From: an uncultured Acidobacteriota bacterium
GTDB lineage: Bacteria > Acidobacteriota > Terriglobia > UBA7540
Direction of reading: 5' to 3'
DNA length: 64,000 nucleotides
Assembly: GCA_963804995.1 (NCBI GenBank)
Contig: CAWDSK010000002.1
Span: forward strand, 640,001-704,000
Positions 33,001 through 36,000 of the stretch are shown here, piece after piece. A program made the position numbers. The number at the start of each line of letters is the position of its first letter. Position 1 is the stretch's first letter.

Positions 33001-36000
33001 GATTGCTTTGGGGATTCTTTACTTCGTCGAAAATGTACTCTCGCATCCGGAGGTCGGTTTCTACGCCAGCCAGGACGCTGATATCAGCCTTGATGACGAC
33101 GGCGACTACTTCACCTGGACGCGGAGACGAACTGCATGCCGCGCTCGACGAGAAGGAGGCGGAAGTCGCGGCCCTCTACTATCACATCGAAGCCGAAGGG
33201 GAGATGCACCACAACCCCGCGAAGAATGTACTGTTCATCGACCAGCCGCTGGAAGCCATTGCCGCACGCCTGCGGATTGGACGGGACGAAGTCGCGCATA
33301 TTCTGGTCCGTGCGCGGAGGAAGATGCTCGAGGCCCGCTCCCACCGCCTTACGCCCTTCATCGACAAGACGATTTATACGAGTTGGAACGGGATGATGAT
33401 CTCCGCGTTGCTTGAAGCCTACCGCGTGCTGGGCGGGGAGGGCCCGCGCGACAGCGCCCTGGCCACGCTCAATATGCTGGTCGCCAAAGCCTATGACCCC
33501 GCAAAAGGCATGTACCACAGCCTGGCCGACGGCACTCCGCGCGTCGAAGGCTTGCTCGAAGACCAGGTGTTCATGATTGCCGCGCTGCTGGATGGCTTCG
33601 AAATCACGGGAACCGGTTTCTACTTCGAGCGCGCTCTGGAGCTAATGGAAATCACTTTGCGCCGCTTCTGGGATGAGCAAGCCGGGGGATTCTTCGATAC
33701 CGCCCACGACCTTGCCGACCGCCACGGCAGCCTTACCATGCCCCGCAAACCGTTTCAGGATTCACCCACACCCGCCGCCAATGCCGTCGCTATACAAGTC
33801 CTCGATCGACTCGACGTGCTTGCCGACCGCGAGGATTTCGGCGAGAAGGCAGAAGCGACGCTTGCACTCTTCGCATCCAAGGCCGGTCAATACGGTCTGT
33901 TCGCTGCCACCTATGGCCTGGCGCTCGTGCATCACCTGCGCGCGCCGGTGGACGTGGTAGTAGTAGGCCGGGGCGATGACCAGCGCACCCGGGATTTACT
34001 CAATGCGGCGTACGAGGCGCCGCGGGCGGGTAAGCGCGTCTTTGCCTTCGAGCCCGCCACTTTGCAGGAGCGCAGCCTGCCCGCCGGGCTCGCGGCAACG
34101 CTGCCCAATCTGCCCTTTGACGGCGTTCCCGTCGCCTTGGTCTGCGAAGGTTCCGCCTGCCACCCACCCGTCCAAACTCCCGCGGCCTTGCGTGAGTTGC
34201 TTGCCCCAACGTCGAAACCCGATTAGGTGCACAGTTCGCCCTGCCGTGTTTGGCTGTGATGGCTAATGGTGTACGGCAAGTTGTGTGCCATCGATTTTGA
34301 CGGTGGTAGCAGGTTGGAAGCACGCTGCCCCGTCTTGCGGAAGGTGCTGCGCGGTTGTACACTGGGGTTTCAGGGTTAGTTCATCAGAGAGTGAGGTTCG
34401 CTTATGTCGTCTCCTATTCGTGCCGACTGGGTATCCAAGCGCACCGGACCCATCGTGACGCAGATGCATTACGCTCGGCAGGGGATCATCACCGAAGAGA
34501 TGGAATACGTGGCGAAGCGCGAGAACCTGACCGCCGAAACTGTGCGGGACGAGGTGGCGCGCGGCCGCATGATTATTCCTGCCAACATCCGGCACGTCGA
34601 ACTCGAGCCCATGGCGATTGGTGTTGCGGCGAAGTGCAAGATCAACTCCAACATCGGAAACTCCTCCAGCGCATCGAATATTGACCAGGAACTCGAGAAG
34701 CTGCACACCTCCGTCCATTACGGGGCGGACACGGTGATGGACCTTTCCACCGGCGGCAATATTCACGACATTCGCGAAGCGATTTTGCGCGCCAGCCCTG
34801 TTCCCATCGGCACCGTGCCCATTTATGAAGGCCTGGCACGCGTAGCGCGAGTGCGTGACCTCACACCGGAAATCATGCTGGAGGTGATCGAAGAGCAGGC
34901 GGCCCAGGGTGTGGATTACATGACGATTCACGCCGGCGTGCTGCGCGAGCACATTCCGCTCACCCGCAAGCGCATTACCGGCATTGTCAGCCGCGGCGGC
35001 GCCATTCTGGCGCAGTGGAGCGTGGAGAACAACCAGGAGAATTTTCTCTACACGCATTTTGAAGAGATCTGCAAAATCTTCCAGAAATACGACGTTCTCG
35101 TTTTCGCTTGGCGACGGCCTGCGCCCCGGTTGCCTGGCCGACGCCAGCGATGAGGCGCAGTTCGCGGAGCTGAAGACCCTGGGCGAGCTCACTCGAAAAG
35201 CCTGGGAATACGACGTGCAGGTGATGATCGAGGGGCCCGGTCACATCCCGCTTGACCAGATCAAGCTGCAGGTCGACAAGGAAATGGAACTCTGTAACGA
35301 AGCGCCCTTCTATACGCTGGGGCCGCTGGTCACCGACATCGCCCCAGGCTACGACCACATCACATCTGCGATTGGCGCGGCCATGATCGGCTGGCACGGC
35401 GCGGCCATGCTTTGCTACGTCACTCCCAAGGAGCATCTGGGCCTGCCCAACAAAGACGACGTTCGCCAGGGTATTATCGCCTACAAGATTGCGGCCCATG
35501 CCGCGGATGTGGCCCGGCACCGCCCTGGAGCGCGCGACCGTGACGATGCGCTTAGTTACGCACGCTTCTTATTTGACTGGAACCGGCAGTTTCAGCTATC
35601 ACTCGACCCGGAAGCGGCCCGCTCCATGCACGACGAAACTCTGCATGACGAGTACTACAAAGAAGCCGCGTTCTGCTCCATGTGCGGGCCCAAGTTCTGC
35701 TCCATGAATACCACGCAGGTTATGGAGAAGCATCTAGGGCTCGACCAGAAAGAGCGCGAGCACAAGTTTGTGGAATTGTTGACGAAAGTTCAGCATTGAG
35801 TATTGCCGCTCGGGCACCACGGGGTTTCTCCGAGCTGCAATCGATCAGGGCTTGATAACAAATTGAATGCGATGCTGGGCAGTGTGTCAGCACCAGTAGG
35901 GGATCACTGTCCAGTCGACTCCGACAGGAGCGGTCCCCTGCTCCAGGGAAGTGGTAACCCTTGTGGTGTATATGCCGTTGTACATGTTAACAATTGAGGA

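What a model noticed while it worked through the whole genome (the two positions that open the first line are those of the whole stretch)
34300..35799. Thiamine synthesis without any TPP riboswitch across family UBA7540 and most sampled Terriglobia
thiC is present in every family genome tested, yet none holds a TPP riboswitch; thiC has a plain sigma70-type promoter a short way before its start. The most widespread riboswitch class seems lost in this lineage.
Evidence so far: thiC in 31 of 31 genomes; RF00059 in 0 of 31 of the same genomes while it rang in 10 of 10 bacterial controls, and in 6 of 41 Terriglobia, from 2 families only. The 20 thiC leaders read show TTGC..N17..TANACT mostly 40-60 nt before the start and no other shared element. 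No paper found.
(Added by a program. Inside this text positions count along the whole contig: contig position 640,001 is position 1 of the stretch shown here. "Call 12" and the like, gene names such as g00115 and contig names such as C1 are that model's own, and its searches are not shown. The text may have been shortened before it was handed on; [...] marks where a part breaks off. The agent that wrote the report below was given it as the finding of a first reader that could run no searches.)

Follow-up and report, generated by a model that had tools for sequence, protein, structure and literature searches.

The report
Thiamine synthesis without its usual riboswitch
A large group of Acidobacteria makes vitamin B1 but lacks the RNA switch that nearly all studied bacteria use to turn that pathway down, while keeping its other vitamin switches, so the pathway most likely runs at a fixed level.

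Summary
The absence is real. Within the family, thiC is in 93 of 101 genomes and thiG in 97 of 101, but RF00059 is over cut-off in 0 of 101. A model trained on Acidobacteriota aptamers found 0 of 41. A filter-free core pattern over 133 genomes gave only chance-level hits. Cobalamin, FMN and SAM-I riboswitches rang in 5 of 5 genomes, so only TPP is missing. thiC has a conserved TTGCG-N17/18-TAVACT promoter (27 of 30) a median 46 nt before ATG, too short for an aptamer. No operator is shared with thiG.

The loss is older and wider than the family. Nine Terriglobia families with the short ThiC lack it, and one nested genus appears to have regained it. Long-ThiC lineages lost it separately, with a half-aptamer and clean deletions visible. 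Phylum-wide, 78 of 124 thiC genomes lack it, while 24 of 26 thiC-less genomes keep it.

Best reading: constitutive, promoter-tuned synthesis (0.68). No expression data were available.

The parts
34404..35799 (+). thiC, short type without the N-terminal ThiC-associated extension (464 aa in an intact congener); split here by one extra base near 35095-35097, most likely an assembly error
   Evidence: intact congener L019 scores 757.8 bits on NF006763, cut-off 650; 5 of 24 orthologs are frameshifted in G000 against G004
34335..34340 (+). -35 hexamer TTGCGG of the predicted thiC promoter
   Evidence: TTGCG conserved in 27 of 30 family leaders; predicted, no start site mapped
34358..34363 (+). -10 hexamer TACACT (family consensus TAVACT), 17 nt after the -35
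   Evidence: not picked up by the strict consensus scan
34364..34403 (+). 40-nt stretch between the -10 and the ATG, with a GAGG ribosome site at 34393-34396; no aptamer, no notable structure
   Evidence: Rfam E-value scan; fold z = +1.03; core matrix score -23.5
32111..34226 (+). DUF255/thioredoxin-domain (YyaL-like, label recalled) gene, also split by a frameshift
31626..32066 (+). DUF2203 gene; directly upstream of thiC in several other Terriglobia families
30440..31534 (+). nadA, quinolinate synthase
29432..30418 (+). moaA-type radical SAM enzyme of molybdenum cofactor synthesis
29118..29244 (+). Moco RNA motif (RF01055, 73.7 bits, cut-off 36), heading the same-strand gene run that ends in thiC
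29235..29267 (+). intrinsic-terminator-like hairpin plus T tract after the Moco RNA; its loop is complementary to a conserved stretch of the aptamer
   Evidence: stem covaries across 13 sequences, 96% of cells paired, 12 two-sided changes, 0 of 500 shuffles, slid controls 31-47%; not listed by the simple scan

Best explanation
These bacteria are thiamine prototrophs that have no TPP riboswitch and run the pathway without end-product control of gene expression. SHOWN: the thi genes lie scattered (thiC, thiD, two thiE-family genes, thiG, thiL, a split thiO-like gene); thiC and thiG sit behind conserved sigma70-type promoters with leaders too short for an aptamer; no ThiN-domain regulator, no ThiB-type binding protein and no ortholog of the TPP-linked TonB receptor were found. 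INFERRED: output is set by fixed promoter strength and limited at the enzyme level (ThiC is slow and product-inhibited). HISTORY, INFERRED: the ancestor of the short-ThiC Terriglobia already lacked the switch. thiC lay downstream of a moaA/DUF2203 cluster, so it could stay expressed once the aptamer leader was gone. Most of this family uses a thiC-specific promoter. Long-ThiC lineages lost the switch separately, and one Terriglobales-like genus regained one.
For: Absence by four methods. Other riboswitches kept in 5 of 5 genomes. Promoter in 27 of 30 leaders, median 46 nt to ATG; the TTG[CA]nn-N16-18-TAnnnT type is genome-wide, 255 against 60 in shuffles. thiG leaders show a TTGCAA/TAGAAT-type promoter about 20 nt before ATG in most of 30, read by eye. 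No word shared by thiC and thiG leaders beyond chance, best p 2e-3 among many thousands tested. ThiN 0 of 1, TIGR01254 0 of 5, TonB receptor best hits 24-29% over short stretches. Tree: short-ThiC families all TPP-negative except genus g33, nested in f3. 0 of 80 closest named loci carry the core. 24 of 26 thiC-less phylum genomes keep the switch against 46 of 124 thiC genomes; kin are not independent, so this is a pattern and not a test. ThiC slow and inhibited by 5'-deoxyadenosine: PMC9544697, passage citing Palmer and Downs 2013.
Against: No expression data: 'constitutive' rests on the lack of visible control elements. The -10 variant TAVACT and the preceding GGTTG are more fixed across genera than a generic promoter needs (GTTGTAVACT in 0 of 2884 other upstream regions sampled in G000), which leaves room for a protein regulator. 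Thiamine uptake was tested only for ThiB and one TonB receptor type. The 46-row short-ThiC clade has only 81% local support, and in the smaller tree two non-Terriglobia short ThiCs are unresolved among it, so a single ancestral loss is not proven. The trees are unrooted.
Confidence: 0.68

Rival explanations
1. thiC has come under the Moco RNA: it is the last gene of a Moco-attenuated moaA-(nadA)-DUF2203-(yyaL)-thiC transcript, so thiamine synthesis follows the Moco RNA's ligand instead of TPP, mainly where thiC has no promoter of its own.
For: Moco RNA within 10 kb upstream on the same strand in 20 of 43 Moco-bearing class genomes (18 without unpublished G307 and G332) and within 7 kb in 9 of 20 family loci. 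Covarying terminator. No promoter match in the DUF2203-thiC gap in 8 of 9 compact clusters from four families, gaps of 71 nt or less (the ninth, G321, has a TATAAT). MoaA, NadA and ThiC are all iron-sulphur enzymes (own knowledge).
Against: In this window and 27 of 30 family leaders thiC has its own promoter. -10-like hexamers stand before nadA or DUF2203 in most compact clusters by eye, with full promoter matches in 3 of 9. Most class genomes have no Moco RNA match (43 of 150 do) yet still lack the TPP switch. The cluster is older than the loss: DUF2203 lies 5-6 kb upstream of TPP-controlled thiC in f65, and moaA directly precedes TPP-thiC in G116.
Confidence: 0.12
2. An unrecognised protein regulator (not ThiR-type) or a global signal controls thiC at the conserved promoter, replacing the riboswitch as transcription factors replaced SAM riboswitches in streptococci.
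For: Precedent stated in PMC3766115 (passage). Extra conserved bases around the -10.
Against: No ThiN domain in G000 (one genome only). No shared word with thiG leaders; the palindromic words in thiC leaders are parts of the promoter or GC-rich triplets. No regulator gene recognised among thiC's conserved neighbours. DUF2203 is in 139 of 150 class genomes, including TPP-positive and thiC-less ones.
Confidence: 0.13
3. A divergent TPP aptamer or a new thiamine-sensing RNA is present but unseen.
For: Divergence is real in the class: 13 of 23 class genomes with a match fall below the Rfam cut-off, and the G270 half-aptamer was missed by Rfam at E up to 1. The genome searches score only 24-150 candidates per genome.
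Against: The core matrix and model R1, which do catch the G270 relic, find nothing: G000 whole-genome best 10.1 bits against leave-one-out minimum 28.8; 21 family thiC loci with filters off best 9.7 bits, E 1.3; 0 of 41 genomes. The shortest RF00059 matches covering the whole model span 73-77 nt, and most leaders are 36-54 nt, unconserved and unstructured.
Confidence: 0.05
4. The absence is an artefact of incomplete or error-rich assemblies.
For: G000 is 92% complete and has frequent frameshifts; many relatives are fragmented.
Against: The leader itself is assembled in 30 of 31 thiC loci read. 0 of 71 high-quality genomes over cut-off. Other riboswitches are recovered from the same assemblies.
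Confidence: 0.02

Closest known systems
Single bacteria with thiamine genes but no TPP riboswitch (Bartonella quintana, Lawsonia intracellularis; six exceptions beside 249 positive genomes in Sun et al. 2013, PMC3766115, passages read)
   Same: Biosynthesis genes present, no TPP riboswitch.
   Different: Those are scattered species in lineages that otherwise have the switch. Here a whole family (133 genomes searched) and most sampled families of a class lack it, in large genomes that keep cobalamin, FMN and SAM-I switches.
Lineage-wide absence of the FMN riboswitch in Bacteroidaceae, Mycobacteriaceae and Cyanobacteria (PMC3766115, passages)
   Same: A whole lineage keeps a vitamin pathway without its usual riboswitch.
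   Different: Different cofactor; that paper found TPP switches in all 24 groups it studied.
Aquifex, no riboswitches found (Barrick and Breaker 2007, PMC2258182, passages)
   Same: No TPP riboswitch.
   Different: Aquifex lacked all ten classes examined; this family lacks TPP selectively.
Cyanobacterial thiamine regulon: TPP riboswitch on thiC alone (PMC3766115, passage)
   Same: Only one control point; the other thi genes are unregulated by TPP. Scattered genes and a short ThiC are also cyanobacterial traits (recalled, not tested).
   Different: Here even thiC has no switch.
Archaeal ThiR (ThiN-domain transcription factor; recalled)
   Same: Thiamine genes without riboswitches.
   Different: No ThiN domain in G000 and no shared operator.
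Moco RNA motif RF01055 on moaA operons
   Same: Over-cut-off match directly before moaA.
   Different: Followed by a covarying intrinsic terminator and by nadA, DUF2203 and thiC; no paper joining Moco RNA and thiC control was evident from the listing.

Membership tests
TPP riboswitch (RF00059) at this thiC leader | Covariance-model score over 54.3 bits, or any significant match | tested here: not met
TPP riboswitch (RF00059) at this thiC leader | Conserved 3' core (P4, J4/5, P5, L5) and UGAGA junction | tested here: not met
   matrix score -23.5 in the leader, 10.1 at best in the whole genome, against at least 28.8 for true cores
TPP riboswitch (RF00059) at this thiC leader | A 5' leader long enough for the aptamer | tested here: not met
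   40 nt from predicted -10 to ATG; rests on a predicted, unmapped promoter
ThiC phosphomethylpyrimidine synthase | Over cut-off on NF006763 and TIGR00190, below the BzaB model | tested here: met
   intact congener 757.8/650, 699.3/460, BzaB 468.5/700; the two window halves cover the profile between them
ThiC phosphomethylpyrimidine synthase | Enzyme activity | not testable with these tools
   needs assay or complementation
De novo thiamine prototroph | thiC, thiD, thiE, thiG, thiL and thiO or thiH present | tested here: met
   G000; thiO-like gene split and under cut-off in G000, over cut-off in 2 of 5 genomes; thiC and thiG frameshifted in this assembly but intact in most relatives
De novo thiamine prototroph | thiS and thiF present; growth without thiamine | not tested
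   searches not run; growth not testable
Sigma70-type housekeeping promoter | TTG-type -35, 17-18 nt spacer, TAnnnT -10, conserved position | tested here: met
   27 of 30 leaders; type enriched 255 vs 60 genome-wide; 8 of 12 consensus letters, so below the scan
Sigma70-type housekeeping promoter | Mapped start site, unregulated output | not testable with these tools
   no RNA run listed
ThiR regulon | ThiN-domain regulator and shared operator | tested here: not met
Moco RNA (RF01055) | Score over 36 bits upstream of moaA | tested here: met
   73.7 bits
Moco RNA (RF01055) | Controls thiC by co-transcription | tested here: inconclusive
   gene order and gaps fit in 8 of 9 compact clusters, but internal promoters are likely

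The most novel reading that the evidence does not exclude
In the ancestor of most Terriglobia, thiC traded its TPP riboswitch for a place at the end of a Moco-RNA-attenuated operon of iron-sulphur cofactor enzymes (moaA, nadA, thiC). In several families thiamine and NAD synthesis would then answer to the Moco RNA's ligand, while one genus later re-acquired a TPP riboswitch in front of the native gene: a natural series of riboswitch loss, substitution and regain.
Probability: 0.15. Interest if true: 0.8.

Novelty: new variant of a known kind. Interest (0 to 1): 0.55.

Why it matters
TPP riboswitches are described as near-universal in bacteria (249 genomes with, six without, in PMC3766115). A class in which most sampled prototrophs do without one shows that this control is dispensable at scale, and that the survey picture leaned on cultured phyla. 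The set offers sister genomes with an intact aptamer, a half-aptamer, a clean deletion and a probable regain, which makes the question of when a riboswitch pays for itself directly testable. If synthesis is not shut off by thiamine, these bacteria could be steady producers of B1 or its precursors for neighbours (speculative). It also warns that a TPP riboswitch cannot be used as a marker of thiamine genes in this phylum: it tracks auxotrophs better than prototrophs.

Tried and rejected
Weak family RF00059 hits L004 and L005 lack the core and had no Rfam match. Pattern hit L201 (matrix 27.5) lies antisense within a long ORF, lacks UGAGA and has no Rfam match; L218 (18.2) was not examined further; only 30 of the pattern's loci were scored by matrix, the rest were judged by eye. 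General loss of riboswitches: rejected. thiC as a pseudogene in G000: unlikely, 5 of 24 orthologs are frameshifted and both thiC and thiG breaks are single extra bases; not confirmed by reads. ThiC hits being Bza paralogs: not so for the 8 proteins tested. DUF2203 as ThiC partner or regulator: its spread does not follow thiC or the switch, the Atlas names only DUF2203; no complex was predicted. A shared operator: none. Other Rfam families in thiC loci: none credible in 20+20+16+16 loci apart from the G148 TPP match. One search used an antisense ORF as query by mistake and was discarded; one search replaced it. Earlier scan notes: nothing on this absence. Literature searches that found no report of it; two searches sought enzyme-level control. 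The library lacks most subscription papers, and no supplements were read (the genome tables of PMC3766115 and PMC2258182 could bear on the novelty claim).

Full report
OBSERVATION. The window holds thiC at 34404-35799 (+), read as two ORFs. The break is one extra base near 35095-35097. G000 shows a frame change in 5 of 24 orthologs shared with congener G004, thiC and thiG among them, so an assembly error is likelier than a pseudogene; reads were not available to confirm. An intact congener protein is a true ThiC (757.8 bits on NF006763, cut-off 650; under the BzaB cut-off). The 177-nt gap before thiC has TTGCGG-17-TACACT at 34335-34363, 40 nt before the ATG, no credible Rfam match and no notable fold (z +1.03).

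IS THE RIBOSWITCH REALLY MISSING? RF00059 gives 16.6 bits at best in G000 (cut-off 54.3) and is over cut-off in 0 of 101 family genomes, with 10 of 14 controls over it. thiC is in 93 of those 101 and thiG in 97. I therefore ran three further tests. (a) A matrix of the 3' core from 34 distinct Acidobacteriota cores (leave-one-out minimum 28.8 bits) scored 10.1 at best over all of G000 and was negative in all 31 family thiC leaders, one of which had only 32 nt. It does detect the G270 relic (27.8). (b) A 27-letter pattern, which matches 49 of 53 source aptamers exactly and 52 with one mismatch (in-sample), was run over the 133 family genomes the tool returned. It gave 2 exact matches, neither pairing P5 by eye, and about one single-mismatch hit per genome, like the reversed control (34 against 24 in genus g1, hand count). 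Thirty loci were scored by matrix; the best lies antisense in an ORF with no Rfam match. (c) Model R1, built from 24 Acidobacteriota aptamers, gave 9.7 bits at best in 21 family thiC loci with filters off and 0 of 41 genomes, while finding G148 (a training sequence) and the G270 relic. Cobalamin, FMN and SAM-I riboswitches matched in 5 of 5 family genomes (FMN over cut-off in 4). The absence is real in the genomes searched and specific to TPP.

HOW THE PATHWAY IS BUILT. In G000 the genes are scattered: thiE inside an accB-accC run (labels from reading the translations), a second thiE-family gene, thiG, thiD behind TTGACA-17-TATAAT, thiL and a split thiO-like gene. thiS and thiF were not searched. 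No ThiN domain, no ThiB-type binding protein in 5 of 5, and no ortholog of the TonB receptors that follow TPP switches in thiC-less relatives. The thiC promoter TTGCG-N17/18-TAVACT is in 27 of 30 leaders, median 46 nt from the ATG; the general type is the genome's common promoter (255 against 60 in shuffles of 2884 upstream regions). thiG leaders mostly show TTGCAA-17-TAGAAT about 20 nt before the start (by eye). No word is shared by thiC and thiG leaders beyond chance.

HOW WIDE AND HOW OLD. In 150 class genomes thiC is in 143 and a TPP match in 23: 19 of 20 in f65 and 4 of 19 in f3, none in the other eleven families. Three of the f3 cases lack thiC and carry the switch before a TonB-type receptor. 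The ThiC tree (107 of 240 rows, FastTree; 36 rows, IQ-TREE) separates a long type with the ThiC-associated domain from a short type. Short ThiC is carried by f1, f62, f2, f3, f66, f67, f68, f70 and f71; by nearest named loci f2 is Acidiferrales-like, f3 Terriglobales-like and f66 Bryobacterales-like. All lack the switch except genus g33 (2 of 2), which nests among switch-less f3 rows; a regain is the simpler reading, though the inner forks have 82-91% support. Among 101 relatives of G148 the other positives sit before long-type thiC or a receptor-like gene, which suggests import. None of the 80 closest named loci has the core, 3 of them with under 300 nt upstream. Long ThiC mostly has the switch, but f64, most of f63, f31 and G252 lack it. 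G270 holds a 204-nt block with an intact 3' core and a broken 5' half, and G256 has the same leader without the block; G263 looks the same by eye. Loss or insertion cannot be told from this pair alone. In 150 phylum genomes: thiC with TPP 46, thiC without 78, TPP without thiC 24, neither 2. So this family did not lose the switch itself; it most likely inherited the lack, and the loss recurs. One ancestral loss is not proven: the short clade has 81% support and the trees are unrooted.

AN UNSEEN NEIGHBOUR. A Moco RNA (73.7 bits) at 29118-29244 heads moaA, nadA, DUF2203, a DUF255 gene and thiC, all on +. A terminator-like hairpin follows it and covaries across 13 sequences. The Moco RNA lies within 7 kb upstream of thiC in 9 of 20 family loci and 5 of 20 other class loci, and within 10 kb in 20 of 43 Moco-bearing class genomes. 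In 8 of 9 compact clusters there is no promoter match between DUF2203 and thiC. Against Moco control: thiC has its own promoter here and in most of the family, -10-like boxes precede nadA or DUF2203 in most clusters, 107 of 150 class genomes had no Moco match, and the linkage also exists where the TPP switch is kept. I read the cluster as an old neighbourhood that made the loss easy, with true Moco control a minority chance.

MECHANISM. Best reading (0.68): unregulated, promoter-tuned expression with flux limited at the enzyme. ThiC's slow turnover and inhibition by 5'-deoxyadenosine are stated in PMC9544697 (passage). Constitutive expression is inferred, not shown. Rivals: unknown protein regulator 0.13, Moco read-through 0.12, hidden RNA 0.05, artefact 0.02.

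KNOWN AND NEW. PMC3766115 (passages) found TPP switches in all 24 groups and all but six genomes, names Bartonella and Lawsonia as having the genes without the switch, and reports lineage-wide absence for FMN. It was not returned by a search requiring the word Acidobacteria, so it seems not to cover this phylum. [quoted passage not shown] PMC5584792 (passages) added nothing. Other papers were seen only as search listings with abstract starts. Eight searches found no report of this absence; subscription papers and supplements were not seen. Verdict: a new variant of a known kind, notable for scale, selectivity and visible intermediate states.

UNPUBLISHED GENOMES. Family tallies include G018, G044, G073, G083, G088, G096, G100 and G396; class tallies G044, G307 and G332; phylum tallies G124 and G149. 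G083 is one of the 27 promoter-bearing leaders; G307 and G332 are 2 of the 20 Moco-linked genomes. No conclusion depends on them.

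Noticed in passing
window 29118-29267: Moco RNA followed by a covarying intrinsic terminator whose loop is complementary to the aptamer, suggesting transcription attenuation of moaA-nadA-DUF2203; nadA under a Moco RNA is itself unusual (own knowledge).
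   Followed up: partly
L125:870-1125 (G270): 204-nt block before thiC with a perfect TPP 3' core but no intact UGAGA or P2; missed by Rfam; absent from sisters G256 and G263. Relic or variant aptamer.
   Followed up: partly
L125, L128, L137 thiC leaders (f63, genus g143): A shared leader of about 110 nt with several hairpins lies between the promoter and the ribosome site in all three, whether or not the TPP block is present; too few sequences to test structure.
   Followed up: no
L146:783-910 (G148) and L411 (G401): Canonical TPP riboswitch before a native short thiC nested among riboswitch-less relatives: probable regain.
   Followed up: yes
L066-L088 (f65): TPP aptamers with long P3 and P3a insertions, up to 155 nt, many below the Rfam cut-off, ending on the ribosome site of thiC.
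   Followed up: partly
L397:3042-11262 (G286) and other f65 loci: Conserved run: thioredoxin-reductase-like gene, DUF2203, a FolB-like ORF (label by eye), a long radical SAM gene, UPF0047 (YjbQ, a secondary thiamine-phosphate synthase by recall), an Fe-S assembly gene, TPP riboswitch, thiC.
   Followed up: partly
L058 and L047 (G178, G165; family f19): TPP riboswitches before a Thi4-like and a ThiD-like ORF (labels from translations), not before thiC.
   Followed up: no
window 32111-34226, 34404-35799; G000 C4:137981-138761; C6:1081325-1082384: Frequent single-base frameshifts in G000 (5 of 24 orthologs tested), probably assembly errors.
   Followed up: yes
G000 C8:8662-9276: Second thiE-family gene (PF02581), standing alone; role unknown.
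   Followed up: no
window 36045-37121: SAM-dependent methyltransferase gene downstream of thiC, under all curated cut-offs; no link to thiamine tested.
   Followed up: no
L132 and L133 (G323, f64): Two thiC copies in one genome, one long and one divergent short, neither with a TPP core.
   Followed up: no
L013, L030, L032: Three family leaders are longer (103-156 nt); two contain inserted hairpin or repeat-like sequence, none a TPP core.
   Followed up: partly
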